DNA of 64,000 nucleotides from an uncultured Bacilli bacterium (GTDB lineage Bacteria; Bacillota_I; Bacilli_A; RF39; UBA660). Below, piece after piece: positions 964-48,428 of this stretch; the first letter of the stretch is position 1, and each line of letters begins with the position of its first letter. Where the stretch lies: positions 7,639 to 71,638 of the forward strand of contig CANQIK010000002.1 of NCBI GenBank assembly GCA_947624085.1, given 5' to 3'. The translations under genes and the position numbers were made by a program. Under the pieces are notes generated by a model. It did no database searches and was not told where the DNA came from. It saw only the letters and a program-made list of their open reading frames with translations.

Positions 964-1039
964 GCTGGAGTAGCTCAGTTGATAGAGCAATGCCCTCGTA
1001 AAGCATAGGTCATAAGTTTGATTCTTATCTCCAGCACCA
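964..1039 (+). tRNA. tRNA-Thr (anticodon CGT)
   Basis: 76-nt cloverleaf. Acceptor stem gctggag/ctccagc is a perfect 7 bp. D stem is gctc/gagc. Anticodon loop ctCGTaa. T stem ataag/cttat. It ends with discriminator A plus CCA. The T-loop TTTGATT is slightly atypical. Confidence 0.75.
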
Positions 1040-1040
1040 T
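1020..1040. repeat. attL core: 21-bp direct repeat (gattcttatctccagcaccat) overlapping the 3' end of tRNA-Thr
   Basis: An identical 21-mer recurs at 39252..39272. The flanks diverge immediately on both sides. Confidence 0.75.
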
Positions 1041-27000: not shown

Positions 27001-30000
27001 GAGATATATGAATGACTATACTAAAGAGGGTAGAAAAAATATAGCTCCTGAAAGTTCAAAATCTCATCCCACTCATCCTGAGTATGATAATTATATGAAA
27101 AATAGAGGCACAATTGACAAAATTAAGGATGCAGTGTATCCTTTATATGGAGGAATACTTCAAAATGCTAAAAAAAATCAAGAAGTTTTTTCGGAAAATA
27201 AGAGGCCGAATAATCGACTGGTGGATGGAAGAGGACTGTTAGATAACAGTTCTTTTTCTTTTGATGAAAATGTTAAAAGATATGACGATTTAAAATCTAC
27301 GAATAAAATTGAATTTTTTAAAAAAGATAATGGAGATATTCAAGTATCTTTAATTGATTCTAATAACAATTTGGTTAATCAATTTGATTTGATATCAAAT
27401 AACGATGCAATTAAACAACTTGGCAATGATATAGCAAATTATTTAATTGATAATGCAACAGATGATTATAAAACAATTTATATAGGTAATGATATTAACA
27501 ACCTAGGCAATGCAACAGATTATTTTATGAACCATAGGCCAAATGAAGATGGAGCAACTTCAGATAATTTAGCAAATCAAAATATTGAAACTCCAGGGCC
27601 AAAAGATTTATATGAGCATCCAGAATATTATTTTCCTATGAATGAAGAATATAGTAGGGAAAGTATTAGAGTATTAAATAAAATCAAAGGCAATCCGAAT
27701 GCTGATGTAACTATATATAGGGCAACAATTGGCAACGAAATTAACCCAGGTGATTGGGTCACTTTATCAAAAACATATGCCGAGTTGCACAATGAATCAC
27801 AATTTGATGGAAAGGCTAATATTCTTCAAAAAGAAGTCAAGGCAAAAGATGTTAAATGGGCAATGGATGATATAAATGAATTTGGTTATTATCCAACCGA
27901 TAATAATGTAAAAAACTCAATAAGTAACGCTGATAAGTGGCAAGAATATTTAGATAGACATTATAAAGCAACAGGTACTAGAACTAATATGAATTCTATT
28001 ATAGCTCCTACAAGAAATAAAGGACTAGATAATAGTTCTTTTTCTTTTGCTCAAGAACAATCTAATAGGTTAACGCAAAAAGAACAAGTAGAACTAAATA
28101 ATTTAAATAATCTACCATTTGAATTAAGTCAAGAAGAACAAAATAGAAAAACATATTTAGAAAATAAAGCTAAAGGTTTAATAAAATATCCAGAATTATC
28201 TCCTAAAATCACTTTTGAGGATATAAGAAATAGTTATTCAAAATATAAAAATCTAAATGACTTTAATAGTAATATTCTTGATAAGGCAGAAAGCTTCATA
28301 TCAGGATATAGAAATACTTCGAGAAGAACTAAAGCTGAATGGTTAGAAGTAGCTAAATTTATAGGTGCTAATTTAAACGCTAAAAATTCTACTGAATTAG
28401 AAAAATACGCAATTCAAAGTTGGCATAGTGCGAAACCTAATATAAAAGAAAATTTAAATAGACAAGGACAAGGATATGTTAAGTTCTCAATTGATGAGTG
28501 GGTTAATCAAATATATAAATCTGCAGGAGTTGGAGAAACAATTAAAGGAAGTAATAATACTAAAAATAGTATTAAAGCTCCACTAAAAAATAGTGATACT
28601 AATAAAGTAGTAGCTCCAACTAGAGAAACACTTAATAGTAGTTCAAAAGTATCAAATCCTAGTGAAATAGCTCAATTGACACCGGAGGATGCTAACACTA
28701 CACAAAAATTAAATTCAAAACAACGAAAGTGGGTTAAAACTTCTACTGAAAGTAATCCTGTTAAAGGAAAGGTTTTAATAGAAAACTTAGACTCTGCTAA
28801 AACAAATTATGTCGTTAGAAGCAACGAAAGCACATTGCAAAGTGCTAATTCAAAATTAAATTCTTTAGGTTATGATGAGTCAATATCATATATAAAGAGT
28901 AAAATGAGTGATAAAAAAGTTGATTTAGAAGATATAGCCTTAGCGGAAAGATTAATTCAAGAGTCAATAAAAAATGGAGATACTAAAACTGCTAGTGATT
29001 TAATAATGGATGTTGCTATTTTAGGCACTGAATTAGGCCAAAAAGTACAAGCATTATCAATAATTCAAAAATTAACTCCGGAAGGGCAACTTGCTATGTA
29101 TCAAAAAATTGTATCAAGAGCAAAAATAAAAGGCGAAAAAGCTTATACGGATGTAAATATTACTCAAGACATGGTAGATACCATACTAGGAGCTTATAAC
29201 GAAGATGGTACGTATAATCAAGATGATTTAAATGAAAGAGTAGAAATTTTTAAACAACAAGTTGCAGAACAATTAAAAAGTAGTAAGTCCGAAAAAATTA
29301 ATGAGTGGAGATATTTAAGCATGTTAGGTAATCCTAAAACTCATATTAGGAATATGGTCTCTAATTTAGCTATGACAGGCACAATTAAAGTTAAAAATGC
29401 AATGGCTAGGACAGGAGAGGCTATAGCATCAAAATTGACTACAATTGAAAGAACTAAAACCTGGAAGAAATCAAGCGATACTGTAACAAACTTTGCAAAG
29501 CAAACGGCTGAAGAGATGAAAAGTGTTATTTCTGGTGAAAGTAAATATGGTGAAAAAGCTTCAATAGAGTCTAAAAAACAAGTTTTTAAAAGTAAAACTT
29601 TAGAGAGAATCAGTGATTTTAATAGTAATGCACTTGAAGCAGAAGATTGGTTTTTTAGCAAAAGAGCATTTCAAAATTCTTTTAGTGAGTATTTAACTGC
29701 CAATGGAATAGAAACTCAACAAGATATAACCAATAATGCAAAACTTATTGAAAAAGCTAAATTATATGCCGTTGAACAAGCAGAAATAGCTACGTTTAGA
29801 CAATATAGTAAATTAGCTAGCTTAATTAATAAATTTGAAAGAAATAACAAAGTGGCGGGACTAGCAATAGGAGCTACTATACCTTTTAAGAAAACACCTA
29901 TTAATGTAGCTAAAGCAGGTGTTAACTATTCTCCTATTGGTTTAATAAAAAGCATAAGTTACGATGCTTTTCAGTTACATAAAGGGAATATAAATGCAAG

Positions 30001-37125: not shown

Positions 37126-37218
37126 AAAGGAGAATATATATGAAAGAAATTATAAACGAAGAAATACAACTTACAGAAGAACAAATTGAAGAATTTTCAA
37201 ATAAAAAGGGAGACGAAA

Positions 37219-38298
37219 ATGAGTAATTCAAATTTAGTAGATGTAGTAGTACCTGCTTACGAGGGAAATTACACTAAAGGTAGAAGCAAAAAAATAGAAA
37301 AAATAACCGTGCACCACATGGCAGGAAAGTTATCAGCATATCAATGTGGAGCATATGTTTTTCAAACGGTAGGTCGCAAAGGCTCATCAAATTATGGAAT
37401 AGGTAATGATGGGGACATAGGCCTTTACGTAGACGAGGAAAACACTCCTTGGTCTGACGGAATTTGGGATAGCAATTGTAAATCAGTAACTATTGAAGTA
37501 TCTGATTGCCAAACAGGTGGAGTTTGGCCTGTATCCGATAAAGCACTCAATAGTCTTATCAGATTAGTAGCGGATATTGCTATTAGAAATAATTTGGGCA
37601 ATCTTGTTAAAGGCAAAAATTTAACTTGGCATAGAATGTATGACTCATCTAATATTTGCCCGGGGGATTATCTAATTTCTAAAATGGATTACATTTGCCA
37701 AGAGGCAAATAAGATAATAAATGGCTCAAGTGATACCGCAGAAGAATATTTTGTACCTAATGGGGAATATGTACTAAAGTTTGATAAATGTATTCGTACA
37801 AGTCCAAATTTAAGCAATAACATATTACGTGCCGAAAAAGTAGATTCATTCACAAAAACTTTATTAGTTTCACTAACAGGTAATGCAATGCTTAAAGCGG
37901 GAACGGAAATTAAATGTTTAAACATAATTAAGGAAAACGGTCGTATCTGGGGCAGTTATGGAAATTGTTGGGTATGCCTACAAAATGCCGATGGGGAGAA
38001 ACAAGCTACAAGAATAGCGGATAATTATTTTGAAGCAGGAGGTACTTATAAGTTAAATCTTGCTAAGTGTATCCGTACAAGTCCTTGCTTGAGCAATAAT
38101 ATATTGCCTGCTCAAAAAGCAGATTCATTTACAAAAACATTGCTTACTTCAACAACAGGCAATGCTATGTTGAAAGCAGGTACTGAAATAACTTGCCTAA
38201 AGATAACTAAAGAAAATGGCCGTATCTGGGGAAGCTACGGAAATTGTTGGGTATGTCTTCAAAACGATGATGGCACGAAGCAAGCGACAAGAATTTAA
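37219..38298 (+). CDS. Endolysin: N-acetylmuramoyl-L-alanine amidase (amidase_2/PGRP type) with two C-terminal cell-wall-binding repeats
   Basis: ITVHHMAGKLSAYQCGAYVFQ...GIGNDG matches the amidase_2 signature. Two tandem roughly 85-aa repeats follow (CIRTSP.LSNNIL...GRIWGSYGNCWVCLQN). RBS aaaagggaga then ATG 37219. Confidence 0.85.
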   Translation: MSNSNLVDVVVPAYEGNYTKGRSKKIEKITVHHMAGKLSAYQCGAYVFQTVGRKGSSNYGIGNDGDIGLYVDEENTPWSDGIWDSNCKSVTIEVSDCQTGGVWPVSDKALNSLIRLVADIAIRNNLGNLVKGKNLTWHRMYDSSNICPGDYLISKMDYICQEANKIINGSSDTAEEYFVPNGEYVLKFDKCIRTSPNLSNNILRAEKVDSFTKTLLVSLTGNAMLKAGTEIKCLNIIKENGRIWGSYGNCWVCLQNADGEKQATRIADNYFEAGGTYKLNLAKCIRTSPCLSNNILPAQKADSFTKTLLTSTTGNAMLKAGTEITCLKITKENGRIWGSYGNCWVCLQNDDGTKQATRI

Positions 38299-38849: not shown

Positions 38850-39176
38850 TTATATTAGATACTTTTTATAATGAGCCTTATGTTCAGGATATCTTTCTAT
38901 CATAAAGTTATATATCATTTTTTTGACTACTTTATTATTTTTAGAATGGATTTCGATGATATGATCTTCATATGATAACGGTACAAGATTCCATACTTCA
39001 TTATTAGACCTATTTTGGTCGATGTGATGATAATGTCTTATATTAAAAACATCTCCTTTTTTAGGCAGATATCTTCCCATGTAATCAACTACATAATCAG
39101 GATTATCCCATGCCTCATAAATAGTATCTAATTGCTTTCTTATTTTATTAGGTATATCCATAAAATATTTGCACAA
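38850..39176 (-). CDS. HNH endonuclease
   Basis: HHIDQNRSNNEVWNLVPLSYEDH fits the HNH motif (H-H...N...H). Confidence 0.75.
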   Translation of the reverse strand: MCKYFMDIPNKIRKQLDTIYEAWDNPDYVVDYMGRYLPKKGDVFNIRHYHHIDQNRSNNEVWNLVPLSYEDHIIEIHSKNNKVVKKMIYNFMIERYPEHKAHYKKYLI

Positions 39177-39251
39177 AATACATTTCGGAGTAATTTTTGG
39201 AGTAATTATTTATAAAATTGCCTTAATTACTGACATTTTTAATGATACAAC

Positions 39252-39272
39252 GATTCTTATCTCCAGCACCAT
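39252..39272. repeat. attR core: second copy of the 21-bp direct repeat
   Basis: Identical to 1020..1040. Confidence 0.75.
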
Positions 39273-39420
39273 AGTGATACCAAACTCGGACTTTTCTAGT
39301 TCGAGTTTTAAAATGTTTGATTTTATGATATTATTTTATAGGTTGAATTGATATATTTGTTAATTAAGAAAATACACTTGCATATTGCCAATAACAATAC
39401 CCTATGTAAGGAGAAGTATT

Positions 39421-40143
39421 ATGTTGTTAAAAAATTGTATTTATTTTATTATAATAACGGTTAGTTTACTTTCAATACCAATATTAATTTATTCAATAAA
39501 AAATAAAAACAAAAGAAATAGTAAATGTATAAAGTTAATTAACTTTTTTTATATAATGTATTTAATTTTAAATATAGCTGTTATACCAAATGTTTTAAGT
39601 ATAGATTTAGGCCTTGAAATTTTATTTTTGGCATTAATATCATTCTTTGCCATAATAATATATATTGTTTCTATTGTTATATGTTCCCAAAAAATTAAAA
39701 AAGGTAATGAAATGACTCCTTTTTCAAAGAAGCCTATATTAGTTATATTATTATTTATTATATTACCTATTTTGTTATTATCATGTAGTTTATTTAAAGA
39801 ATATTATCTAATAATTAATAGCGACATAGTATTAGTATACAAATCAAATGGTAATGGTGGCATAGACGATAGTAATCATTTTGCTTATGCAATTAATGAA
39901 AATTATTTTGAAGAAATTAGTTTAGGACTTGCAACGGGCGATTACAGTTTAGTAAAATATTTACCTAAAAAATCAAAAAAAATTGATAATATTGAAAATA
40001 TAAATAATTATAACGTTTCTCTCGATAACAATGAAAAATATATTACAATTTATAAAAATAATAAACTTATTCATAAAAAACAAATTAATCCTAATTATTA
40101 CAACATTAGCTTTGATGGAGGCTTTTATATAAACAACGAATAA
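39421..40143 (+). CDS. Polytopic membrane protein (Ile/Asn-rich)
   Basis: RBS aaggaga then ATG 39421. The track start is TTG at 39385. Multiple TM helices. Confidence 0.5.
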   Translation: MLLKNCIYFIIITVSLLSIPILIYSIKNKNKRNSKCIKLINFFYIMYLILNIAVIPNVLSIDLGLEILFLALISFFAIIIYIVSIVICSQKIKKGNEMTPFSKKPILVILLFIILPILLLSCSLFKEYYLIINSDIVLVYKSNGNGGIDDSNHFAYAINENYFEEISLGLATGDYSLVKYLPKKSKKIDNIENINNYNVSLDNNEKYITIYKNNKLIHKKQINPNYYNISFDGGFYINNE

Positions 40144-41120
40144 AGGTATAATTTCGCTATATTATGGTTATATTTCAAGAATGTTGCCATACTTCTTCGT
40201 TTAAATTGATAGCTATATATCATTAACTGATTTGACAAAATATTCTAATTCTGAAAGTCCTCCTATTGTTATATTTAGATTAGCAATAAAGGAACAATTG
40301 ATTATATAGGATTATGGAAACAATTCAATAATGAAGTTGGATTTTCATCATTTACTTTAAGTATTAAAAGATGGATTGCTATCACTAGGTTGATAAGAAA
40401 CACGGGAATTGCTGAAACTTGCAAAAAAATTCATATTATGATAATATGTATTTAGCAAGGAAGCTTGCATAAAATAAAAAAGGGAACATTCAGTTTCGTA
40501 AAGTTGAATGTCTACCCAATTAATATTGTTTAGACATTTAATTCAAATATGCGAATTAAGTGTCATTTTTTTATAACTACTATCATAATGATAAGGAGAA
40601 ATAAAATGATAGTAATGAGCTTTAGAACTTTTAAGATAAAAGTCTTAGTTTTCACTATATCAAACCTCCTTTCTATAAAGATTGGAGGTAGACACTCAAC
40701 AACTGATGTTCCCTGTAAAAAGTATACTATTTATTGTAAACAAAAAACAAGCGTTCGTGTAATATTTTTCCAAAAAATGTCGTACTTCTTCCTTTTAGTC
40801 ACTAGGGTAATTGAAAAAGCAGTTATTTAAAAAATTGAGAAAATCAATTGTAACTATAATATGATTTTCAGAACATTATTAAAGATAGCAAATCTAAAAA
40901 TATGCGTAAATTTTAAAACATTATCATTTGTGCTATAATTTCTATAGATTTATTAATATAGGACGGAGCATTGAATATATATATATAAATAAATTAAAAG
41001 AATATTTAAATAGCTGACAACAAAATATCAACAATAGTAAAGTCACTTTTTGCTGTTTCCCATAAAAAGGGATCTAAAAAAATAAAATGTAAATTTTTAA
41101 AACTTTTTTAAAAATATATA

Positions 41121-41150
41121 TTGACATGTGTCATTTGTACGCATTATACT
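41121..41150 (+). promoter_or_regulatory. Promoter of the nrtR-like gene, with a perfect palindrome overlapping the -35 element
   Basis: TTGACA at 41121..41126, an 18-nt spacer, TATACT at 41145..41150. The palindrome TGACATGTGTCA lies at 41122..41133. Confidence 0.45.
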
Positions 41151-41170
41151 ATAGCTATAAGGAGGATAAA

Positions 41171-41845
41171 ATGCAAACAAGCAACCCACTTTATAAAAGG
41201 CAGGGAATACATGCCATAGCTTCAATCTTTACCGTTGAAGATGGCGTAACAAAAGTTCTTTTGGTAAAGAGAAAGAATGTACCTTTTAAAGATATGTGGG
41301 CATTAGTTGGTGGCGCCATATATAATAATGAAGATTTGCTTGACGGCCTAAAGAGGGAAATATTTGAAAAAACCGGAATAATAAATATTGATACCTACTT
41401 TTCAGGCGTATTTGGTAAGAAAGACCGTTCTCCTGTAATGCGCATGGTGGCAATTACTTATATTGGGGTAATTGACAGTAAGAAAGTGTCCTTTTTAAAA
41501 GAGACACTGCACACCTCGAATGCTGATTGGGTTCCAATAGATAAAATACCAAAATTAGCATTTGATCATAATGAAATTGTGAGTGAAGCTTTAACATCAC
41601 TTCGCGAGCAAATAGTAAATACTGATATCTTAAAAGCCTTATTCCCTGATGGCTTTACGCTTCCAGAAATTCAAAAGGTATATGAATCAATTTTAGGGAA
41701 GAAGTTTGATCGCCGTAATTTCCGGAAAAAGATACTTAGTATTGATCTCATCCAAGATACAAACAAAGTGCGAAATTTTAAAGGAAATAAACCTGCCAAA
41801 GTTTATAAATTTAAAAAGAGCAAACAAAATAAAAGTGTATTTTAA
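41171..41845 (+). CDS. NrtR-family Nudix-related transcriptional regulator
   Basis: Nudix box GGAIYNNEDLLDGLKREIFEKTGI. The C-terminal wHTH FPDGFTLPEIQKVYESILGKKFDRRNFRKKIL...GNKPAKVYKF matches the NrtR DNA-binding domain pattern. RBS GGAGG 41161..41165. The track start at 41126 lies inside the promoter. Confidence 0.7.
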   Translation: MQTSNPLYKRQGIHAIASIFTVEDGVTKVLLVKRKNVPFKDMWALVGGAIYNNEDLLDGLKREIFEKTGIINIDTYFSGVFGKKDRSPVMRMVAITYIGVIDSKKVSFLKETLHTSNADWVPIDKIPKLAFDHNEIVSEALTSLREQIVNTDILKALFPDGFTLPEIQKVYESILGKKFDRRNFRKKILSIDLIQDTNKVRNFKGNKPAKVYKFKKSKQNKSVF

Positions 41846-41866
41846 ATACATTTTTTATACCACCTT

Positions 41867-41902
41867 AAAAGCGTATTTTTAACGCTACTAAAATACGCTT
41901 TT
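41867..41902 (+). terminator. Perfect 13-bp-stem hairpin (aaaagcgtatttt-N10-aaaatacgctttt); possible terminator or operator
   Basis: Seen directly. There is no strong T run, so its function is uncertain. Confidence 0.35.
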
Positions 41903-41916
41903 AAATAAAAAAGTAA

Positions 41917-41933
41917 TGCGTAAATTATACGCA
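41917..41933 (+). promoter_or_regulatory. Palindrome TGCGTA-N5-TACGCA about 20 nt upstream of the HD-kinase gene; candidate operator
   Basis: Perfect 6-bp inverted arms. The half-site TACGC(A) also occurs at 41138..41143 and within the hairpin arms. Confidence 0.4.
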
Positions 41934-41952
41934 GTGAGAGGAAGGAAATATA

Positions 41953-44577
41953 ATGACCGTTAATGATATATGGGGAAGAATTGTAATTGAAAAAGAATAT
42001 GAAGATATAATTAATAGTAAAGAATTTAGTAGCCTTAAACAAAAGACACAACTTGGCCTTAATTCGAATATTAATGCTACACACACAAGATATCAACATA
42101 GTATTGGTACATATTATATGGCTTGTAAGCTTATTGAAATATGTAAAAGAAAGTTTTCGGATATTTTAAACATTGATAAAGATGATGAAAGAGCGATAAA
42201 GGTTATGGCTTTGGTACATGACATAGGCCATGGGTGCTTTTCTCACGTTTCAGAAAAACAACTCGAGGGAACTCATGAAGATAGAACGGAAAAACTACTA
42301 TTAGATCCGACAACGGAAATTCATAAAGCTATTGTTGCTAACTTTGGTAAATCAGTTTTAGAAAAAACAATTTATTTACTAAAATTAAAAGAAAAGGTAA
42401 AAGCTTCAGGCACAGTTGAAGATAGTAAAAACTTAGTTTTTGTCATATGCAAACTCTTATCAGGAGGCATAGATATAGATCGTATTGACTATATATATCG
42501 TGACTCTCGCTATGCTTTAGGCGAAGAGAATGATTTTTCATCTATTTTAGATAGTATTGAACTTGAATGCATAGAGGGTACTTTAGAAGTTGTTTTTGAT
42601 GGTGATGCTGAATTTAAAATAGCTAATTTTCTTAATAAAAGATTTGAGTTATATGATACTTTATATATGAACTCTTCAACAAGAATTTTGGAACAGATAT
42701 TTGATAAGTTCTTAAAAGAAGCAGGTATAAAACTTACTTGGGATACTTCAGAAGTAGAAATGAACAATATCTTTAGAGAAAATTTAGACAGTAATAATCC
42801 TATTTTAAGAAGATACTCTCATTTATTAAGTTCTCGAAAAATAGATAGTTGTTTTGTTATTAAAGAATATGATGATGAAACTAAATTCAAACATTTTAGG
42901 AAAAGATTATTTTCGCGATGCCAAGTTTTAGAAAAATATCCTGAAGTTGTTTTTCAAGATAAATCAAAAGTAAGTGTATATAATAAAACTAACAAAGTTT
43001 TTGTTAATAAACAAGGAATAATTCAAGATATATCTGATTCATCGAAGATATTGAATTCATCATTACAAAAAGAGAAATATGTAATAGCAATTGATACTGA
43101 ATTACTAACTATTCTTTTGAAAAGAGACAATATTCCTGAAAAAGATATATCAGATATTTTAAAAGAAATAACAAAAGTAATGGCTCCTGAAATAGAGCAA
43201 GAAAAGAAGTATGTTTTTACTGATGATTTAGCGCAAAGTCCCGAAGAAGCCTTTGCAGAAATAAAAAACATATTGGGGCTTTCTAATCCTAAAATAGTCC
43301 AAAACCAAGATGTTTATTATGATCATGATCGTATACTTGAAAGCTATCGTATAGCTATTAGAAAAAGAGTATGCGGTGGTAAAGTTGAATGGACGGTAAA
43401 AAGACCTATCAAAGATAAAACTTCTCTTTCTAAAAGAGATGAAAAAAACTTTTCTTCCAAAGAAGAAGTAATAGATTTTTTAAACAGCGAATGGAATATT
43501 CCTATTAAGTCTTTAGAGGAAGCTATAACATTAAATACTACACGCGAAAAATATTATTTAGAGAAGGCTGGAGGTATATATGAAGTGGTTTTTGATAGAA
43601 CTACCCCTCATTTTGCCGATAGAAAATATCCTGAACAATATATGATAGAGTGTGAACTTAAAGAAGGAAATTCTTCTGGATTATTTGTTATAGATAGCCT
43701 TATTAAAAAACTTTCATTCATAAAAGAATGCAATAACTCTAAAAAAGAAAGAGCGTTAAGTTTAGTGGAAGAAGATAAAAATAAAGAAATAGATATAAAC
43801 TTTGATAAAGAGGATGTTATATATGATAAAGAAGTAGCTACTTTCTTCATCGGTAATCCAAAACTTTTAGAGAATTTAAGATATCTTGATAAGAAGAAAG
43901 ATGAGATAAGAAAATTAAGAGAAAAATTTGGCGATTTAAAAACTCCAATTGTAGTAACAATATCGGGAAGTCCTAGAGCAGGTAAAACAACCTGTGTTGA
44001 TAATTTGACAGAGTTTTTACGAAAAGCTGATCTTAGAGTTTCCTCATTAACTGAACCCGCGGGGATGATATATAGTACACTTAAAAGCCGGGCTGAAAAG
44101 AGGGCTTTACTTCAAGATAGGGTAGGCTTTGTGGATAAGCAATATGAAATTGGCACAAGTGCTATTCAAAGTAGTCTTGAAAATAGTGATGTTATTATTT
44201 GCGATCGTGGAGCTATTGATCCTTTTGTTTGGTATGATATGTACCATGCTTTAGGAATTGTTGATGATGAAAGATATCATAAATTTTTAGAAAATATTAA
44301 AAAGGCAAAAAACTATATAGATTGTTTTTATGCTTTATATGCGGAAAGTGAAGTAGCTATACAAAGAGATTACCTTAATTCATTATCAATAGAAGAGCGC
44401 AGTACGATGAGTAGGGAAAATGTTGAAAGATATAATAGTGCTTTACTTAGAATGCTACCAATAATTAGTGCAAACTGTGATACAATGAAATTAATTGATA
44501 CATCTAAGGCAGATAAAATGGATGTCTCTATTGAAGTGGCAGATAGAGTTATGGAAAGAATAAGGAGATTGTATTAA
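41953..44577 (+). CDS. Fusion of an HD-domain dNTP triphosphohydrolase-like N-terminus with a P-loop nucleoside/nucleotide kinase-like C-terminus (874 aa)
   Basis: N-terminus HTRYQHSIGTYYMACKL...ALVHDIGHGCFSH (HD, dGTPase/SAMHD1-type signature). C-terminus VVTISGSPRAGKTTC (Walker A)...ICDRGAIDPFVWYD (dNK/NRK-like lid). RBS gagaggaagg. Confidence 0.75.
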   Translation: MTVNDIWGRIVIEKEYEDIINSKEFSSLKQKTQLGLNSNINATHTRYQHSIGTYYMACKLIEICKRKFSDILNIDKDDERAIKVMALVHDIGHGCFSHVSEKQLEGTHEDRTEKLLLDPTTEIHKAIVANFGKSVLEKTIYLLKLKEKVKASGTVEDSKNLVFVICKLLSGGIDIDRIDYIYRDSRYALGEENDFSSILDSIELECIEGTLEVVFDGDAEFKIANFLNKRFELYDTLYMNSSTRILEQIFDKFLKEAGIKLTWDTSEVEMNNIFRENLDSNNPILRRYSHLLSSRKIDSCFVIKEYDDETKFKHFRKRLFSRCQVLEKYPEVVFQDKSKVSVYNKTNKVFVNKQGIIQDISDSSKILNSSLQKEKYVIAIDTELLTILLKRDNIPEKDISDILKEITKVMAPEIEQEKKYVFTDDLAQSPEEAFAEIKNILGLSNPKIVQNQDVYYDHDRILESYRIAIRKRVCGGKVEWTVKRPIKDKTSLSKRDEKNFSSKEEVIDFLNSEWNIPIKSLEEAITLNTTREKYYLEKAGGIYEVVFDRTTPHFADRKYPEQYMIECELKEGNSSGLFVIDSLIKKLSFIKECNNSKKERALSLVEEDKNKEIDINFDKEDVIYDKEVATFFIGNPKLLENLRYLDKKKDEIRKLREKFGDLKTPIVVTISGSPRAGKTTCVDNLTEFLRKADLRVSSLTEPAGMIYSTLKSRAEKRALLQDRVGFVDKQYEIGTSAIQSSLENSDVIICDRGAIDPFVWYDMYHALGIVDDERYHKFLENIKKAKNYIDCFYALYAESEVAIQRDYLNSLSIEERSTMSRENVERYNSALLRMLPIISANCDTMKLIDTSKADKMDVSIEVADRVMERIRRLY

Positions 44578-45029
44578 TGTATTTTATTAACTTAATAAAA
44601 GAAAGATTTAAGAATGAGAAATTAGATATTTATGTTGATATGGATGGCGTTATAGCCGATTATGAAGTAGGTAAATTTGATTTCTTAAATCGTAGACCTC
44701 TTATGAATAACATTAAGATATTTAAAGAGTTAAATTTTTATGAAAATATAACTCTTAACATATTATCAATATGCCGAGAAGATCATCAAATTGCTGATAA
44801 AAATAAATGGCTTGATAAATATGCACCTTTTTTCAAAAATAGAAATATAATTTCTAAAGAAAGTCATCCTAACAAATCTTCTAAAGAATTGAAATATGAA
44901 TTTTTAAAGAATATTCCGCAAAAAGATAAAAAAATTATTTTTGTTGATGATGATAATGGTATTATAAAATATATCCATAGTAATTTAGATAATATTATTA
45001 TATTTCAAGCTTCCTCATTAATAGATTAA
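44577..45029 (+). CDS. 5'(3')-deoxyribonucleotidase, NT5C family (HAD)
   Basis: N-terminal HAD motif I LDIYVDMDGVIADYE, typical of NT5C. ATG overlaps the upstream stop. Confidence 0.65.
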   Translation: MYFINLIKERFKNEKLDIYVDMDGVIADYEVGKFDFLNRRPLMNNIKIFKELNFYENITLNILSICREDHQIADKNKWLDKYAPFFKNRNIISKESHPNKSSKELKYEFLKNIPQKDKKIIFVDDDNGIIKYIHSNLDNIIIFQASSLID

Positions 45030-45147
45030 AAATATCAATCAGTTTAAATGATTTTAGATATATGTAAAACAATCATAACAAGGCCTATCATATTTTGAAA
45101 AGTACTACCCTTTTGTGATATATTATAGAATATCAGGAGTAGGGATA

Positions 45148-45783
45148 ATGAAAAAGAATGTTTTAAGAATAATGTTAGGCTCAATAATAGCAGAGGTTAT
45201 TATAGTATGCTTATTAATATTGATTGGCGACTTTGATGAAATTGCATGGCAAACAATAGGTTCTATAGCAATTATATTTGGCTATTCTATACCTTGTTTA
45301 TTTTATGCCAAAGTATTTGATAATGAGAAATACAAGGCTATAGCGATTATTGGTTCATTTATTGTTTTCTTTGCAGGCTTAATAAGTGTATTAAATTTGT
45401 GGAACCCATTATTTGACGAAGACTTTGAATTAATTGCCACCTTCAATGTTATTATATGGATGCTTGCTTTTATATCGTGGATTTTATCATTATCCACAGT
45501 AAATCAAGTATTAAATTTATTTAAAAAAATAGGGGTATCTTTATTAGCAATATTAAGCCTTTTCGTTATTGATGATATTTGGAGCAAGAATTTTCCAAAA
45601 GGCTTTTTAGCAAGATTATATTATGTTTTAATTGTTTTAACAATTGGATCTCTTATTTGCATTTTGATATTAACAAAAGTCTATAAAAAGGAAATCATTA
45701 AAAGTGAGGATGACAAGCAAAATAATATTTCTAATAATGATAAACTTTTACAAAATGCGATTGGCGAAGACAAAAAAAGTTAA
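45148..45783 (+). CDS. Polytopic membrane protein
   Basis: RBS ggagtaggg then ATG 45148 (the track start is 45115). Five to six TM helices. Confidence 0.5.
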   Translation: MKKNVLRIMLGSIIAEVIIVCLLILIGDFDEIAWQTIGSIAIIFGYSIPCLFYAKVFDNEKYKAIAIIGSFIVFFAGLISVLNLWNPLFDEDFELIATFNVIIWMLAFISWILSLSTVNQVLNLFKKIGVSLLAILSLFVIDDIWSKNFPKGFLARLYYVLIVLTIGSLICILILTKVYKKEIIKSEDDKQNNISNNDKLLQNAIGEDKKS

Positions 45784-45810
45784 AGATAAATATAAACAAC
45801 AATTTAAAAA

Positions 45811-45831
45811 CCACTTCATATTGCGAAGTGG
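45811..45831. terminator. Bidirectional rho-independent terminator between convergent genes
   Basis: ccacttc-atattgc-gaagtgg flanked by an A run and a T run. Confidence 0.55.
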
Positions 45832-45839
45832 CTTCTTTT

Positions 45840-46865
45840 TTATTTGGCAGGATCAATTAGTATTTTAATCGCATCATCTTCTCCAGAGGTTAATCTTTCA
45901 AAGGCCTTTTGAACGCCCTCGATAGGAACGATGTCATCAACGAATTTACTAACATTAAATTTCTTTTTATTAATTAAATTTATACATTCGGCAAATTCAT
46001 CATAGGTGTAGCCAATAGCTCCATATAGTTTTTGTTCTCTTGTAACAGTAACAGCAGATGGGAAAGAAATACTATCTAAAGATACACCTACAAGAACAAT
46101 AGTACCATTAGGTTTAGCAAGCATTACAGCAGAAGATACGGCCGGGGTATTTCCACAGCAATCAAAAACAATATCATATCCATAAGGGCAATTTTCCAAA
46201 GCTTCTTTCATAAAAGTTTCATCTTTGGCATTATAAAACTTATCAGCACAGCCAAGAGTTACAGCTTTTTCACCCCGTTTTTCATTAACTTCACTAACCG
46301 CTACAAAACTTGCTCCCGCTTTTTTAGCTATCATAGCACATATATCACCAATGATACCGGCACCAATAACTAAAACATTATCCCCAGGCTTAATACCAGA
46401 TAGTCTAACCGCATGAAATGATACTGCTGTAGGTTCTACCATGGCTACTTCTTCATCAGTCATTTCTTCAGGAACTTTAATAGTTAAATCAGGTCTAAGA
46501 CTCGTTTTTAAAGCATAAGCTCCTGGGCTTGAAAGCGATAACCCAACGGCATCATTCCAAGTCTCTGGACAATATTGAGGATTACCTGATTTGCAAGCAG
46601 GACACTTACCACATGGCGAAATAGGTAAAGCAGTAACTCGGTCACCTAGTCTTAAATCAGAACGGGAACCAGCATCAATAACTGTTCCACATAATTCATG
46701 CCCCATTACAAGGCCTACAGGTTCACCGGAATCCCAATAATGAATATCCGAACCACAAATTCCGGCTTTTTTAACTTCAATTATAACTTTACCAGTGCCT
46801 AATATTGGCTCGCTTATATCTTTAGTTTCTATCATTTTCTTTTGCGTAATCATTGCACACTTCAT
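45840..46865 (-). CDS. Zinc-dependent alcohol/polyol dehydrogenase (MDR family)
   Basis: GHELCGTVIDAGS zinc-ADH signature. Structural zinc site CGKCPACKSG. Rossmann motif LVIGAGIIG. Confidence 0.85.
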   Translation of the reverse strand: MKCAMITQKKMIETKDISEPILGTGKVIIEVKKAGICGSDIHYWDSGEPVGLVMGHELCGTVIDAGSRSDLRLGDRVTALPISPCGKCPACKSGNPQYCPETWNDAVGLSLSSPGAYALKTSLRPDLTIKVPEEMTDEEVAMVEPTAVSFHAVRLSGIKPGDNVLVIGAGIIGDICAMIAKKAGASFVAVSEVNEKRGEKAVTLGCADKFYNAKDETFMKEALENCPYGYDIVFDCCGNTPAVSSAVMLAKPNGTIVLVGVSLDSISFPSAVTVTREQKLYGAIGYTYDEFAECINLINKKKFNVSKFVDDIVPIEGVQKAFERLTSGEDDAIKILIDPAK

Positions 46866-47068: not shown

Positions 47069-47353
47069 ATGTCGCCTGATGAAATATCAAAATTAAGAGA
47101 ATATTGTGCTGAATTCAAACAATATCGTGCCAATACTGCTGATGGTTCAGGAAGTACTTTACATGATATAAAAGTTACTTTTGATTATATCGCTAAAACA
47201 TTAGAAAATTATGATATACAGGGATCACATTATGGCAGTGAATTAACTAACAAAGCAAAAGCTGCTGGAGAAGTTTTAAGCCAATTATGGTTATGCTTAC
47301 AAGATCTAGAAAATTCTGTAGAATACTTCTGTGATACTCAAGAACAATTATAG
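47069..47353 (+). CDS. Small helical protein 1 of 4 (94 aa); unknown function
   Basis: RBS gaaaggagg. Predicted all-alpha. Confidence 0.5.
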   Translation: MSPDEISKLREYCAEFKQYRANTADGSGSTLHDIKVTFDYIAKTLENYDIQGSHYGSELTNKAKAAGEVLSQLWLCLQDLENSVEYFCDTQEQL

Positions 47354-47388
47354 TGAAATAAAATTAATAAGAAAGGAAAGTGATATAA

Positions 47389-47721
47389 ATGGCATCTTTA
47401 ACACCTGCTAAAACATTACCTGAAGAACTTCAAAGACAGTCAGAAAGAGTTCAAGAACAATTACAATGTTTAAAAACTATTTTAGATAATGTTGAAAATC
47501 GTTTACATAGCATGAGTTCTATGATGGAAAATAAAAATACTGATTTATCATCACAACTTAGTAATTTAGCTGACCACTTAGAAAATTATGAATCAAAAGC
47601 TCAAGCAATATATGATGATGTTTCAGATAGCTTATCTTCATATTCTGTTGCAATATTAAATAGTATTGAAAGCCTTAATACACATGTAACTGATATTGGT
47701 AATTTAATTGCAGATCTTTAA
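47389..47721 (+). CDS. Small helical protein 2 of 4 (110 aa)
   Basis: RBS aagaaaggaaag. Ser/Leu/Asn-rich helical. Confidence 0.5.
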   Translation: MASLTPAKTLPEELQRQSERVQEQLQCLKTILDNVENRLHSMSSMMENKNTDLSSQLSNLADHLENYESKAQAIYDDVSDSLSSYSVAILNSIESLNTHVTDIGNLIADL

Positions 47722-47774
47722 TTAAACAATGTTAAAGCTGGGGAATGCCTCAGTTTTTATTTTGCCTTAAAAGC

Positions 47775-47803
47775 TTGTAAATAATAGTTGAATGTAATAT
47801 AAT
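47775..47803 (+). promoter_or_regulatory. Sigma-70-like promoter for small proteins 3 and 4
   Basis: TTGTAA, a 17-nt spacer, then TATAAT at 47798..47803. Confidence 0.4.
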
Positions 47804-47829
47804 GAGCTTATGGTGCGGAGGCTTTGAAT

Positions 47830-48090
47830 ATGGCTAATTTTACAGAACCTGAACTTAATGAATTAAGTGATAATTTAATAAAATTATTATCTGTAATGGG
47901 CGAAAGCCATTACAAAGATATGGAAAAATCTTTTTTTGATTTAAACGAAGTATTTATAGCAAATTCCAAAGAAAAAATTGATATAGCAGATTTTGATGCA
48001 TTTCGAAAATCTATAAATGAATTGCAAAATGATACAGTAGCCGTAGTCAATCAAATTAAGGCTCTTATGGTAAATGGGGGATTAAGATGA
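47830..48090 (+). CDS. Small helical protein 3 of 4 (87 aa)
   Basis: RBS gcggaggc then ATG 47830. The track start is TTG at 47824. Confidence 0.5.
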   Translation: MANFTEPELNELSDNLIKLLSVMGESHYKDMEKSFFDLNEVFIANSKEKIDIADFDAFRKSINELQNDTVAVVNQIKALMVNGGLR

Positions 48091-48428
48091 ATTTAGAAGA
48101 TGTTAATGTTAAAGCAAAAGAATTTCGAGCTAGTATTTCATCCCTTATTGAGGAATATACATGTATTAGTAATTATTTGAAAAATATATATGGAATTGTT
48201 AGCGCTAAGGATATTAACCTTTGCAATAATGTGGAAGATTTAATAAGAGAATATAATGCTGTTATTAATACTTTAAATAGTGTATATCTTGAAAAAGCCT
48301 CTAAAATTGTCGGCTACGTTGATAAATCTAATGCAAATTTAGATCAACTATTAAAAGATGTTCGCAATATAATGAATAATTTTAGCTCAAGTGCACATAT
48401 CGAGGATGAAATAGATACTTTATATTAA
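48087..48428 (+). CDS. Small helical protein 4 of 4 (113 aa)
   Basis: ATGA-coupled to protein 3. Confidence 0.5.
   Translation: MNLEDVNVKAKEFRASISSLIEEYTCISNYLKNIYGIVSAKDINLCNNVEDLIREYNAVINTLNSVYLEKASKIVGYVDKSNANLDQLLKDVRNIMNNFSSSAHIEDEIDTLY

What the first reader, a model, noticed from the sequence alone, without database searches (positions are those of the whole stretch)
40980..45029. NrtR-like Nudix regulator, HD-phosphohydrolase/P-loop kinase fusion and NT5C deoxyribonucleotidase cluster immediately outside attR: candidate nucleotide-pool defence or salvage module
Three co-directional genes all act on (deoxy)nucleotides. The first is an NrtR-family regulator with an intact Nudix box and the characteristic C-terminal wHTH. 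The second is an 874-aa protein with an N-terminal dGTPase/SAMHD1-type HD motif (HDIGHGCFSH) and a C-terminal Walker-A nucleoside-kinase-like domain (ISGSPRAGKTT...CDRGAIDP), separated by about 450 aa of unknown function. The third is an NT5C-type 5'(3')-deoxyribonucleotidase (VDMDGVIAD). dNTP-triphosphohydrolase-based dNTP depletion is an established anti-phage strategy. An HD-kinase fusion under an NrtR-type sensor, with a dedicated dNMP phosphatase, is not something I recognise as described. The alternative reading is an NAD/nucleoside salvage regulon, since NrtR classically controls NAD metabolism and the kinase could be NRK-like. The location right beside a prophage attachment site suits a defence island.
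Basis: partly seen in the sequence, partly recalled or inferred. Interest (0 to 1): 0.8.

Follow-up and report, generated by a model that had tools for sequence, protein, structure and literature searches.

The report
Regulated deoxynucleotide pool-control operon
This is a self-repressed operon from an uncultured, small-genome gut bacterium; it encodes a dNTP-splitting enzyme fused to a triphosphate-clearing domain and a nucleoside-kinase domain, plus a small nucleotidase, and it looks like nucleotide-pool housekeeping rather than a phage-defence island.

Summary
The three genes are real. They are nrtR-like (true start 41171, 224 aa), an 874-aa fusion (41953-44577) and a 150-aa HAD protein (44577-45029).

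The "450-aa unknown linker" is resolved. Residues 1-~410 form a complete EF1143/SAMHD1-type dNTP triphosphohydrolase core. Residues ~411-600 form a CYTH triphosphate-tunnel domain with every catalytic motif intact. Residues ~661-874 form a kinase with the dNK/TMK/NadR fold.

A palindrome, GYGTA-N5-TACRC (the NrtR core GT-N7-AC), lies inside the nrtR promoter spacer and again just before the fusion gene. The same arrangement recurs in about 100 related loci.

Behind this same regulator cassette, other genomes carry thymidine kinase, histidine phosphatases, kinase-CYTH fusions, HD-CYTH or dCTP deaminases. No locus examined carries NAD genes.

The locus co-diverges with its chromosomal neighbours. 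The prophage (attR 39252-39272) is a strain-specific neighbour.

Best reading (about 0.55): a metabolite-controlled deoxynucleotide salvage and pool-balancing operon, in which the tunnel domain removes the triphosphate that the dNTPase releases. Defence (about 0.15) and NAD/nicotinamide-riboside salvage (about 0.12) are not excluded.

Novelty: a new variant of known kinds.

The parts
41121..41150 (+). Sigma-70-type promoter of nrtR: -35 TTGACA (41121-41126), 18-nt spacer, -10 TATACT (41145-41150).
   Evidence: This is the best promoter match in the region, 11 of 12. The same TTGACA...TATAAT frame is conserved upstream of nrtR in every related locus read.
41128..41142 (.). Operator 1, GTGTCATTTGTACGC, inside the promoter spacer. 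It has one mismatch to GYGTA-N5-TACRC.
   Evidence: Found. An operator occupies this position in 17 of 18 loci and in 60 of 77 metagenome loci. It contains the NrtR core GT-N7-AC described in PMC2330246.
41171..41845 (+). nrtR-like gene, 224 aa: a Nudix-like sensor domain (box degenerate, EE to EK) plus a C-terminal winged helix.
   Evidence: Pfam NrtR_WHD 1.1e-21 and NUDIX 5.9e-13. PDB BtAraR 5bs6 1.8e-35 and SoNrtR 3gz5 4.7e-22. Orthologues are 62-97% identical.
41832..41856 (+). AU-rich hairpin with the nrtR stop codon in its loop, followed by a T-run. It is a probable leaky terminator or attenuator between nrtR and the enzyme genes.
   Evidence: Read directly from the sequence. The arm complementary to the coding end is conserved in the non-coding DNA of related loci. 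This function is inferred, not tested.
41871..41885 (.). Operator-like site, GCGTATTTTTAACGC (one mismatch).
   Evidence: Found. A second intergenic box at the same relative place occurs in L027, L028, L029, L077 and L078.
41918..41932 (.). Operator 2, GCGTAAATTATACGC (perfect palindrome arms), 4-5 nt before the ribosome-binding site of the fusion gene.
   Evidence: This is the only zero-mismatch match in the 64-kb window. A box lies just before the first cargo gene in 16 of 17 loci and in 44 of 77 metagenome loci.
41953..43182 (+). Fusion protein residues 1-410: complete EF1143/SAMHD1-type dNTP triphosphohydrolase core (HD domain plus C-terminal lobe).
   Evidence: PDB by sequence: 2o6i 6.7e-20 and SAMHD1 about 1e-11. 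Foldseek: 2o6i target TM-score 0.74 over about 450 columns. Invariant residues Q33, L34, G35, R46, H49, H89, D90, H93, H98, D174, D176, R177, D179, R183 and D184. AF2 pLDDT 89.7.
43183..43752 (+). Fusion protein residues 411-600: CYTH / triphosphate tunnel metalloenzyme domain of the phosphatase type.
43933..44577 (+). Fusion protein residues 661-874 plus stop codon: P-loop nucleoside/nucleotide kinase domain. It is preceded by a helical linker (residues ~601-660).
44577..45029 (+). 150-aa minimal HAD phosphatase, NT5C-like (5'(3')-deoxyribonucleotidase-like). Its ATG overlaps the fusion gene's stop codon (TAATG), and AGGAG lies 10 nt upstream, so the two are probably translationally coupled.
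   Evidence: The overlap was read. Invariant DMDGV, S64, K94/K106 and DDDN in 24 homologues. The profile hits only mdN/cdN deoxyribonucleotidases in the PDB. The gene is present wherever the kinase domain is intact, and it is lost in L017, where the kinase has decayed.

Best explanation
The locus is an autoregulated operon for (deoxy)nucleotide salvage and pool control. It sits in the core chromosome of an uncultured, low-GC, small-genome gut member of the Bacilli.

Regulation:
- An NrtR/AraR-family repressor binds the palindrome GYGTA-N5-TACRC.
- One copy lies in the spacer of its own promoter and one or two more lie just upstream of the enzyme genes.
- The repressor is presumed to release the DNA when its degenerate Nudix pocket binds a pentose-phosphate or nucleotide-type ligand. 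The identity of the ligand is not known.

Enzymes made on derepression (all activities inferred):
1. The SAMHD1/EF1143-type HD core splits dNTPs into deoxynucleoside plus inorganic triphosphate.
2. The fused CYTH tunnel domain hydrolyses that triphosphate, making the reaction irreversible and removing a strong metal chelator.
3. The C-terminal dNK/TMK-fold kinase and the translationally coupled NT5C-like phosphatase form a kinase/nucleotidase pair that sets the nucleoside to nucleoside-monophosphate balance.

Together these are the bacterial counterpart, in one transcription unit, of the mammalian SAMHD1 + deoxynucleoside kinase + cdN/mdN substrate cycle.

Shown here: gene structure, domain identities and folds, conserved catalytic residues, conserved operators and their positions, conserved gene linkage, and chromosomal synteny.

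Inferred, not shown: every enzymatic activity, the triphosphate hand-over, the ligand, and the physiological role.
For: Domains:
- The HD core matches EF1143 and SAMHD1 by sequence and by fold.
- The CYTH domain has all triphosphatase motifs invariant in 35 homologues and the tunnel fold.
- The kinase has the dNK/TMK fold.
- The HAD profile finds only deoxyribonucleotidases in the PDB.

Fusion and linkage:
- HD-CYTH is a conserved architecture: about 79 clusters, and about 20 clusters at 50% identity spanning residues 1-600 among 1.84 billion representatives.
- L029 encodes CYTH-kinase, the HAD and HD-CYTH as separate genes in the same operon.
- The kinase and the HAD co-occur, and they decay or are lost together in L017.

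Regulation:
- 39 of 47 operator matches in 290 kb fall within 2.9 kb of nrtR promoter and intergenic DNA.
- In 80 further loci, 109 of 133 matches do the same.

Regulon content:
- Behind orthologous regulators (59-71% identity) lie thymidine kinase (20 loci), histidine phosphatase (27), kinase-CYTH (17), HD-CYTH (4) and two dCTP deaminases above the TIGR02274 cut-off.
- In another lineage thymidine kinase overlaps the HD-CYTH start.
- In L013 the cluster lies close to thyX, tmk, folD and glyA.

Synteny and vertical descent:
- Window against L017: HD 92%, ADH 93%, SpoU 89%.
- Window against L078: HD 68%, ADH 66%, SpoU 78%.
- Upstream genes differ, and there is no prophage in L077 or L078.
Against: - No activity has been measured.
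- The best Pfam family for the kinase is AAA_28 (NadR/Ttd14 type), and NrtR regulators classically govern NAD metabolism, so a nicotinamide-riboside role is possible.
- The cargo behind a very conserved regulator cassette is modular and variable. It includes dNTPase, dCTP deaminase and kinase plus radical-SAM sets, which echo the known nucleotide-based antiphage chemistries.
- Recurrent cargo proteins of 172, 181, 199 and 217 aa have no known function.
- In these tiny genomes, housekeeping neighbours are weak evidence against mobility. The cluster sits between ruvA and ruvB in L013 and between rpoC and rpsL in L005, which looks like insertion.
- I could not scan whole genomes, so the full regulon is unknown, as is the presence of ribonucleotide reductase or NAD genes.
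Confidence: 0.55

Rival explanations
1. Inducible anti-phage (or stress) nucleotide-depletion system. The NrtR-like sensor detects an infection-linked nucleotide such as ADP-ribose. It then derepresses a dNTPase-triphosphatase that drains dNTPs, and the kinase/nucleotidase pair helps recovery or adds a further block.
For: dNTP depletion by dGTPase and dCTP deaminase is an established defence (bioRxiv 10.1101/2021.04.26.441389, listed). The same regulator cassette is joined to variable nucleotide-acting cargo in related genomes: HD-CYTH, a kinase-radical-SAM fusion with two dCTP deaminases, and a kinase-CYTH with radical SAM/SPASM enzymes. The radical SAM proteins give weak PADLOC pVip hits. 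The cluster interrupts ruvA-ruvB in L013 and rpoC-rpsL in L005. The window copy lies 1.9 kb from a prophage end.
Against: Defence dGTPase models match only the HD motif region and are far below cut-off. The pVip hits are generic radical-SAM similarity: heme and mycofactocin maturase models score higher, and the viperin model reaches 86.5 and 29.9 bits against a cut-off of 180. The commonest cargo includes thymidine kinase, a salvage enzyme. The locus is syntenic and co-diverges with its neighbours across 67-92% relatives. The prophage is absent in relatives. There are no homologues on phage or viral contigs. No other defence genes flank the locus in the contexts read.
Confidence: 0.15
2. NAD / nicotinamide-riboside salvage regulon. 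The ADP-ribose-responsive NrtR controls a NadR-type ribosylnicotinamide kinase domain and an NMN/NR nucleotidase, and the HD-CYTH part acts on an NAD-derived or related phosphate compound.
Confidence: 0.12
3. Nucleotide sanitation or production of a modified nucleotide. The HD-CYTH enzyme removes non-canonical (d)NTPs, or the cassette family builds or degrades a specialised nucleotide-derived metabolite.
For: The cargo families include radical SAM enzymes, unknown small proteins and phosphatases. CYTH enzymes act on several triphosphate substrates (PMC8233210).
Against: The window cluster holds no radical SAM or other tailoring enzyme. The HD active-site residues are those of canonical dNTPases. 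Nothing points to a specific non-canonical substrate.
Confidence: 0.08

Closest known systems
EF1143 (Enterococcus faecalis) and SAMHD1 dNTP triphosphohydrolases
   Same: Residues 1-~410 share the whole fold (target TM-score 0.74 to 2o6i) and the metal, catalytic and substrate residues: QLG, R-x-x-H-S, HDxGHxxxSH and IDxDRxDYxxRD.
   Different: Only about 20% identity. The protein is fused at its C-terminus to a CYTH domain, and here also to a kinase. Allosteric sites and oligomeric state were not examined. It is under a dedicated repressor.
CYTH / triphosphate tunnel metalloenzymes that hydrolyse inorganic triphosphate (YgiF, NeuTTM, SaTTM)
   Different: It is embedded between a dNTPase and a kinase and has no CHAD domain. 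The substrate is untested. This protein's own sequence is below Pfam's CYTH threshold. The source of triphosphate in cells has been an open point (PMC3440374), and this fusion suggests one.
NrtR / AraR family of Nudix-related transcription factors (SoNrtR, BtAraR)
   Same: It has a Nudix-like domain plus winged helix, a degenerate Nudix box, a palindromic operator with the GT-N7-AC core and a GTGT-type half-site, autoregulation, and the DNA-contact motif D-[KR]-R-N-F-R-K.
   Different: The regulon is deoxynucleotide/nucleoside enzymes rather than NAD, pentose or PRPP genes. The ligand is unknown. The pocket mixes AraR-like and SoNrtR-like residues.
Mammalian dNTP substrate cycles (SAMHD1, deoxynucleoside kinases, cdN/mdN 5'-deoxynucleotidases); recalled from the literature, not read here
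   Same: The same three enzyme types occur together: a dNTP triphosphohydrolase, a dNK-fold kinase and an NT5C-type nucleotidase.
   Different: Here they are encoded in one operon, two of them in one polypeptide, with an added triphosphatase and a dedicated repressor. The activities are inferred only.
Anti-phage dGTPase and dCTP deaminase nucleotide-depletion systems (Tal et al.)
   Same: The proposed chemistry, dNTP destruction by an HD enzyme, is the same. Related cassettes carry dCTP deaminases.
   Different: It is a different HD subfamily: the Dgt-type models match only residues ~11-106. It is a multi-gene unit that is transcriptionally repressed and chromosomally syntenic, and it is not in defence islands in the contexts seen.
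Kinase-CYTH fusions (plant TTM1/TTM2) and the NadR ribosylnicotinamide kinase domain
   Different: The domain order is the reverse of TTM1/2. There is no membrane anchor and no NMN adenylyltransferase domain. The fold is closer to deoxynucleoside kinases.

Membership tests
NrtR family of Nudix-related transcription regulators | N-terminal Nudix-like domain plus C-terminal winged-helix DNA-binding domain | tested here: met
   Pfam NUDIX 5.9e-13 and NrtR_WHD 1.1e-21, both above cut-off. PDB AraR 1.8e-35 and SoNrtR 4.7e-22 over the full length.
NrtR family of Nudix-related transcription regulators | Palindromic operator of about 21 bp with the conserved core GT-N7-AC, located in promoters of target genes | tested here: met
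   GYGTA-N5-TACRC lies in the nrtR promoter spacer and before the cargo genes. 39 of 47 and 109 of 133 matches fall in these small regions. The core is as defined in PMC2330246. Binding itself was not tested.
NrtR family of Nudix-related transcription regulators | Regulon of NAD biosynthesis or salvage genes | tested here: not met
   No NAD gene is adjacent in about 100 loci. The cargo is HD-CYTH, thymidine kinase, phosphatases, kinase-CYTH and dCTP deaminases. Whole genomes were not scanned.
NrtR family of Nudix-related transcription regulators | ADP-ribose as the anti-repressor ligand | not testable with these tools
   Only residue comparison was possible. Equivalents of AraR R34, R86 and H131 and of SoNrtR N43 and K76 are present; the SoNrtR R98 equivalent is Val.
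NCBIfam NF050029 ADPR-responsive repressor NtrR (equivalog) | Score at or above the curated cut-off (400 bits) | tested here: not met
   130.3 bits.
SAMHD1/EF1143-type dNTP triphosphohydrolases | HD metal site and catalytic/substrate residues (H...HD...D, R-x-x-H, GHxxxSH, DxDRxDYxxRD) | tested here: met
   All are invariant in 35 homologues and aligned to EF1143 and SAMHD1.
SAMHD1/EF1143-type dNTP triphosphohydrolases | Whole-core fold (HD domain plus C-terminal lobe) | tested here: met
   Foldseek to 2o6i: E 3.6e-16, target TM-score 0.74 over 451 columns. SAMHD1 target TM-score 0.62-0.66. Model pLDDT 89.7.
SAMHD1/EF1143-type dNTP triphosphohydrolases | dNTP converted to deoxynucleoside plus triphosphate | not testable with these tools
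   An enzyme assay is needed.
Anti-phage dGTPase (PADLOC dGTPase; NCBIfam NF041026) | Full-length match above the curated cut-off | tested here: not met
   PADLOC matches residues 12-106 only (1.2e-11). NF041026 gives 33.8 bits against a cut-off of 400. TIGR01353 gives 50 bits against 152.
Anti-phage dGTPase (PADLOC dGTPase; NCBIfam NF041026) | Location in variable defence islands or on mobile elements | tested here: not met
   The locus is syntenic with co-diverging neighbours. No defence genes flank it. It is absent from phage and viral collections. Caveat: the genomes are small and the insertion sites are odd in L005 and L013.
CYTH / triphosphate tunnel metalloenzymes | ExExK, RxR, and the basic/acidic tunnel residues including the C-terminal ExE | tested here: met
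   E415, E417, K419, R470, R472, K483, R495, E497, E544, D548, E566 and E568 are invariant. They were classified with the rules of PMC8233210.
CYTH / triphosphate tunnel metalloenzymes | Pfam PF01928 above the gathering score | tested here: inconclusive
   The window protein itself gives no hit at E<=1. Orthologues P0010 and P0030 score 33.4 and 32.1 bits against 23.2.
CYTH / triphosphate tunnel metalloenzymes | Eight-stranded tunnel fold | tested here: met
Deoxynucleoside kinase / thymidylate kinase fold (dNK-TMK) | P-loop, E-P and D-R-x motifs, a LID arginine, and the fold | tested here: met
NadR-type ribosylnicotinamide kinase (Pfam AAA_28) | AAA_28 domain match, and closest fold being NadR RNK | tested here: inconclusive
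NT5C 5'(3')-deoxyribonucleotidases (HAD superfamily) | HAD motifs I-IV, with DxDGV as motif I | tested here: met
   DMDGV, S64, K94/K106 and DDDN are invariant in 24 homologues.
NT5C 5'(3')-deoxyribonucleotidases (HAD superfamily) | Pfam PF06941 above the gathering score | tested here: not met
   13.7 bits against 24.8. A few homologues carry a precomputed PF06941 hit. The profile hits only mdN/cdN in the PDB, at E 5e-4 to 1e-2. At 150 aa the protein is shorter than the ~180-aa model.

The most novel reading that the evidence does not exclude
The nrtR cassette (operator-bearing promoter, sensor-repressor, leaky hairpin, second operator) may be a portable, metabolite-gated switch. Small-genome gut Bacilli would couple it to interchangeable nucleotide-destroying or nucleotide-modifying effectors: a dNTPase-triphosphatase, dCTP deaminases, or kinase plus radical-SAM sets. 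On this reading the window's cluster is an inducible antiviral or stress nucleotide-depletion system triggered by an infection-linked nucleotide such as ADP-ribose.
Probability: 0.15. Interest if true: 0.8.

Novelty: new variant of a known kind. Interest (0 to 1): 0.5.

Why it matters
- It assigns a new type of regulon, deoxynucleotide and nucleoside enzymes, to the NrtR/AraR regulator family. The operator and about 100 example loci are ready for testing.
- The conserved fusion of a SAMHD1-type dNTPase to a triphosphate-tunnel phosphatase is gene-fusion evidence for two open questions: where cellular inorganic triphosphate comes from, and what bacterial CYTH triphosphatases are for. Both answers are directly testable with one recombinant protein.
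- It points to how abundant but uncultured reduced-genome gut bacteria may manage DNA precursors. That bears on attempts to cultivate them.
- If the defence reading were right instead, it would reveal a transcriptionally gated nucleotide-depletion immunity module.

Tried and rejected
- Rfam at a permissive threshold over 39000-46000 found no riboswitch or other RNA family. The two hits had E 0.45 and 0.91 and were far below gathering scores. I therefore dropped an RNA-based control element.
- The minus-strand "terminator" at 41933-41917 reported by the consensus scan is better explained as operator 2. The same palindrome occurs in promoter spacers.
- PADLOC and NCBIfam defence models gave only partial HD-motif matches.
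- PADLOC pVip hits of radical SAM proteins in related cassettes are generic radical-SAM similarity.
- A phage-collection tblastn found only HD-motif fragments, and the IMG/VR scan found nothing.
- The repeat finder did not list the att repeat among its top 20 families. A k-mer script then found it.
- Three full-text searches for HD-CYTH or TTM-SAMHD1 links returned nothing. The Iyer and Aravind 2002 paper is not held, so its statement on CYTH fusions is cited second-hand from PMC8233210.
- The afdb50 fold library was unavailable.
- The 222-aa membrane ORF at 45115-45783 is not conserved next to the cluster in L017, L077 or L078, so I left it out.
- My placement of these genomes in the GTDB order RF39 rests on memory of record names such as 'Acholeplasma sp. 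CAG:878'. It was not tested.

Full report
**Observation.** The window is low-GC, about 29%. It carries three co-directional ORFs at 41126/41171-41845, 41953-44577 and 44577-45029.
- Pfam confirms an NrtR-type regulator (NrtR_WHD 1.1e-21, NUDIX 5.9e-13).
- Pfam also finds an HD domain and an AAA_28 P-loop domain at the two ends of the 874-aa protein.
- The third protein reaches only a sub-threshold NT5C hit.
- The regulator's real start is almost certainly ATG 41171, behind AGGAGG. That gives the 224 aa seen in all orthologues.
- Its Nudix box reads REIFEKTG, so one catalytic Glu is Lys. This change is conserved in the close orthologues, so "intact" is not correct.

**The long protein.** A database search found 81 relatives.
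- Seventeen are full-length.
- About 60 are roughly 600-680 aa and lack the kinase.
- Many carry a precomputed CYTH domain.

An alignment of 35 relatives shows the following invariant residues:
- the SAMHD1-type residues: QLG, R46, H49, H89, D90, H93, H98, D174, D176, R177, D179, R183 and D184;
- in the supposed linker, the complete CYTH signature: E415-x-E417-x-K419, R470-x-R472, K483, R495, E497, E544, D548 and E566-x-E568.

Structure supports these assignments.
- The AlphaFold model is confident (pLDDT 89.7).
- Residues 1-~410 superpose on the whole of EF1143, BT4208 and SAMHD1 (target TM-score 0.74 to 2o6i). The sequence match to 2o6i is 6.7e-20.

I applied the published CYTH signature rules (PMC8233210). 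There is no HF motif before ExExK, a small residue (A468) precedes RxR, both arginines are present and ExE is kept. The domain is therefore a two-metal triphosphatase, not a class IV cyclase or a thiamine triphosphatase. The window protein's own CYTH region is below Pfam's threshold, but orthologues pass it.

**The small protein.** It has 397 homologues.
- They share invariant HAD motifs: DMDGV, S64, K94/K106 and DDDN.
- Their profile finds only 5'(3')-deoxyribonucleotidases in the PDB, weakly, at E 5e-4 to 1e-2.
- Its ATG overlaps the stop codon of the fusion gene (TAATG), with AGGAG upstream.
- The family also occurs as a stand-alone gene in other genomes.

**Linkage.** I mapped the parts onto 36 related loci.
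- nrtR lies directly upstream of HD-CYTH in nearly all of them.
- One lineage is an exception: there thymidine kinase overlaps the HD-CYTH start and no nrtR is nearby.
- The kinase domain and the 150-aa HAD occur together. The one exception is a contig that ends right after the kinase.
- In L029 the operon is nrtR, a separate CYTH-kinase protein, the HAD, then HD-CYTH.
- In L017, an 82% relative, the HAD gene is gone. The kinase domain is only 62% identical there, against 87-92% for HD and CYTH. In the similar protein P0003 the kinase's E-P segment is deleted and DRG has become DQG.
- This co-decay argues that the kinase and the phosphatase work as a pair.

**Regulation.** Upstream regions of the loci share a striking design.
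- The promoter reads TTGACA, then A-GYGTA-N5-TACRC, then TATAAT.
- It is followed by nrtR and a hairpin whose loop holds the stop codon.
- A second copy of the palindrome then lies just before the ribosome-binding site of the next gene.

In the window the sites are 41128-41142 (one mismatch), 41871-41885 (one mismatch) and 41918-41932 (perfect). Three of the six matches in 64 kb cluster at this locus. Across 18 loci, 39 of 47 matches fall in 2.9 kb of such regions out of 290 kb. In 80 further metagenome loci, 109 of 133 do so, and 60 of 77 promoters carry the site.

The palindrome contains the NrtR family core GT-N7-AC (PMC2330246). It also contains the GTGT half-site contacted by the K/R-R-N-x-x-K helix in BtAraR (PMC4666351), and that helix is conserved here as DRRNFRK.

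The regulator is closer to arabinose-binding AraR (1.8e-35) than to ADP-ribose-binding SoNrtR (4.7e-22).
- It keeps the pentose-contacting Arg, Arg and His.
- It keeps the SoNrtR Asn and Lys that touch the ADP alpha-phosphate.
- It lacks SoNrtR Arg98.

A phosphorylated pentose or nucleotide ligand is therefore plausible, but it is not identified.

**What else the cassette drives.** Orthologous regulators (65-72% identical) are much more numerous than HD-CYTH proteins.
- a kinase-CYTH protein followed by two radical SAM/SPASM enzymes;
- a kinase-radical-SAM fusion followed by two dCTP deaminases (above the TIGR02274 cut-off), a histidine phosphatase and two unknown paralogues.

I then took a census of 80 metagenome loci. 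Among the genes following nrtR, it found:

| Cargo family | Loci |
|---|---|
| Histidine phosphatase | 27 |
| Thymidine kinase | 20 |
| Unknown family of ~181 aa | 18 |
| Unknown family of ~217 aa | 18 |
| Kinase-CYTH | 17 |
| Unknown family of ~199 aa | 13 |
| Unknown family of ~172 aa | 11 |
| HD-CYTH | 4 |
| dCTP deaminase pairs | 2 |

- Some downstream ORFs in these chains are unrelated housekeeping genes (rplS, signal peptidase, PolC).
- Where no second operator exists, the cargo gene follows nrtR almost directly.
- No NAD gene was seen.
- In L013 the cluster lies between ruvA and ruvB, close to thyX, tmk, folD and glyA.

**Chromosomal context.**
- The prophage is bounded by a 21-nt direct repeat at 1020-1040 (the tRNA-Thr 3' end) and at 39252-39272 (tRNA).
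- Relatives at 87% and 67% identity keep nrtR, the fusion gene, the HAD and the downstream ADH, SpoU methylase and sigma-like genes. Their upstream genes differ, and no prophage is present.
- Identities of the cluster track those of its neighbours: 92/93/89% in L017 and 68/66/78% in L078.
- No relatives occur in the phage or viral collections.
- The host genomes are labelled uncultured Bacilli, Tenericutes or 'Acholeplasma sp. CAG:878'. From memory these belong to the reduced-genome order RF39 (described in PMC6784871), but I did not test this.

**Interpretation.** The most economical reading is a metabolite-gated operon for deoxynucleotide salvage and pool balancing.
- The dNTPase yields deoxynucleoside plus triphosphate, and the fused tunnel enzyme removes the triphosphate.
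- The source of cellular triphosphate has been unclear, and specific triphosphatases have been called metabolite-proofreading enzymes (PMC3440374).
- The kinase and the nucleotidase set the nucleoside to monophosphate balance.
- The presence of thymidine kinase and dCTP deaminase in sister cassettes fits this theme.
- The architecture itself, CYTH fused to HD hydrolases and to nucleotide kinases, has been noted before (PMC8233210). Neither the function nor the NrtR control has been described in the library I could search.

**Remaining doubt.**
- The modular cargo behind a conserved sensor cassette resembles regulator-plus-effector defence modules. That cargo includes the three chemistries used by known nucleotide-based antiphage systems.
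- In tiny genomes, housekeeping neighbours are weak evidence against mobility.
- The kinase's best sequence family is NadR-like, and the regulator family is classically tied to NAD.
- I therefore give the housekeeping reading 0.55, defence 0.15, NAD/NR salvage 0.12, and sanitation or a modified nucleotide 0.08.

**Verdict.** The defence interpretation is not supported, but it is not excluded. The finding is a new variant of known kinds, of moderate interest, and it offers two clean, testable ideas: the dNTPase-triphosphatase coupling, and a deoxynucleotide regulon for an NrtR-type sensor.

Noticed in passing
window 1020-1040 and 39252-39272: An exact 21-nt direct repeat, GATTCTTATCTCCAGCACCAT, occurs at both places. 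The first copy is the 3' end of tRNA-Thr (964-1039), and an integrase gene lies at 1150-2283 on the minus strand. These are the attL and attR of a ~38-kb prophage. The repeat finder did not list it among its top 20 families.
   Followed up: yes
L017 126-2723: This is an 82% relative. Its kinase domain is 62% identical against 87-92% for HD and CYTH, and the 150-aa HAD gene is absent. The similar protein P0003 has the E-P segment deleted and DRG changed to DQG. The kinase and the phosphatase appear to be decaying together.
   Followed up: partly
L029 5165-9699: The operon has the parts unfused: nrtR, a 462-aa CYTH-kinase protein, a 151-aa HAD, then a 616-aa HD-CYTH. This genome therefore has two CYTH domains in one operon.
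   Followed up: partly
L010 6816-8014, also L030, L031, L033, L088, L126-L133: One to three tandem paralogues of a ~181-aa protein (possible zinc ribbon) plus a ~217-aa protein, both without a family, sit between nrtR and the next enzyme gene. The second operator lies in front of them. They recur in about 18 of the 80 metagenome loci.
   Followed up: partly
L082 6735-11305 and L121 7785-13580: The same nrtR cassette drives a P-loop kinase plus radical SAM (fused or split), two tandem dCTP deaminases, a histidine phosphatase and further unknown proteins. The set looks like a pathway for a modified pyrimidine nucleotide or for dUMP supply.
   Followed up: partly
L080 6738-10172: nrtR is followed by a 381-aa kinase with a CYTH-like C-terminal half whose ExExK motif has degenerated to DIEQT. 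Two radical SAM/SPASM enzymes come next.
   Followed up: partly
L013 6618-11462: The cluster nrtR, HD-CYTH and an unrelated 177-aa HAD lies between ruvA and ruvB, which I recall are usually adjacent. thyX, tmk, folD and glyA follow within 6 kb.
   Followed up: no
L035 6001-7830: A distant HD-CYTH homologue (about 31% identity) has lost the ExExK motif (YKLKF) and has no nrtR. It keeps the same downstream neighbours as L007. This may be a catalytically dead tunnel domain.
   Followed up: no
L036 5918-5980: Two perfect operators lie upstream of an HD-CYTH gene that matches in three different frames. It may be a frameshifted copy or a sequencing error. tblastn found no nrtR in this locus.
   Followed up: no
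L077 2769-3299: A stand-alone 176-aa CYTH protein is encoded two genes upstream of nrtR in the 87% relative. It is absent from the window at that place.
   Followed up: no
L098 8960-13630, also L101, L105, L107: In several loci the nrtR and kinase-CYTH operon is followed directly, or after one gene, by the replicative polymerase gene polC.
   Followed up: no
window 47069-48428: Four consecutive small ORFs of 88-113 aa have no family assignment. L001 and L002 have four genes of matching size at the same place. They are absent at this place in the 67% relative L078.
   Followed up: no
window 37775-38294: The prophage amidase (Amidase_2, 37186-38298) ends in two 241-nt direct repeats that are 77% identical. 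This is probably a duplicated cell-wall-binding module.
   Followed up: no
window 24008-31621: A 2537-aa ORF lies inside the prophage. I did not examine it.
   Followed up: no
L074 7947-12700: Next to a stand-alone homologue of the 150-aa HAD, one strain carries Abi_2 and a SMODS/SLATT pair between conserved flanking genes, and the other strain (L073) lacks them. This is a variable defence spot unrelated to the window cluster.
   Followed up: no
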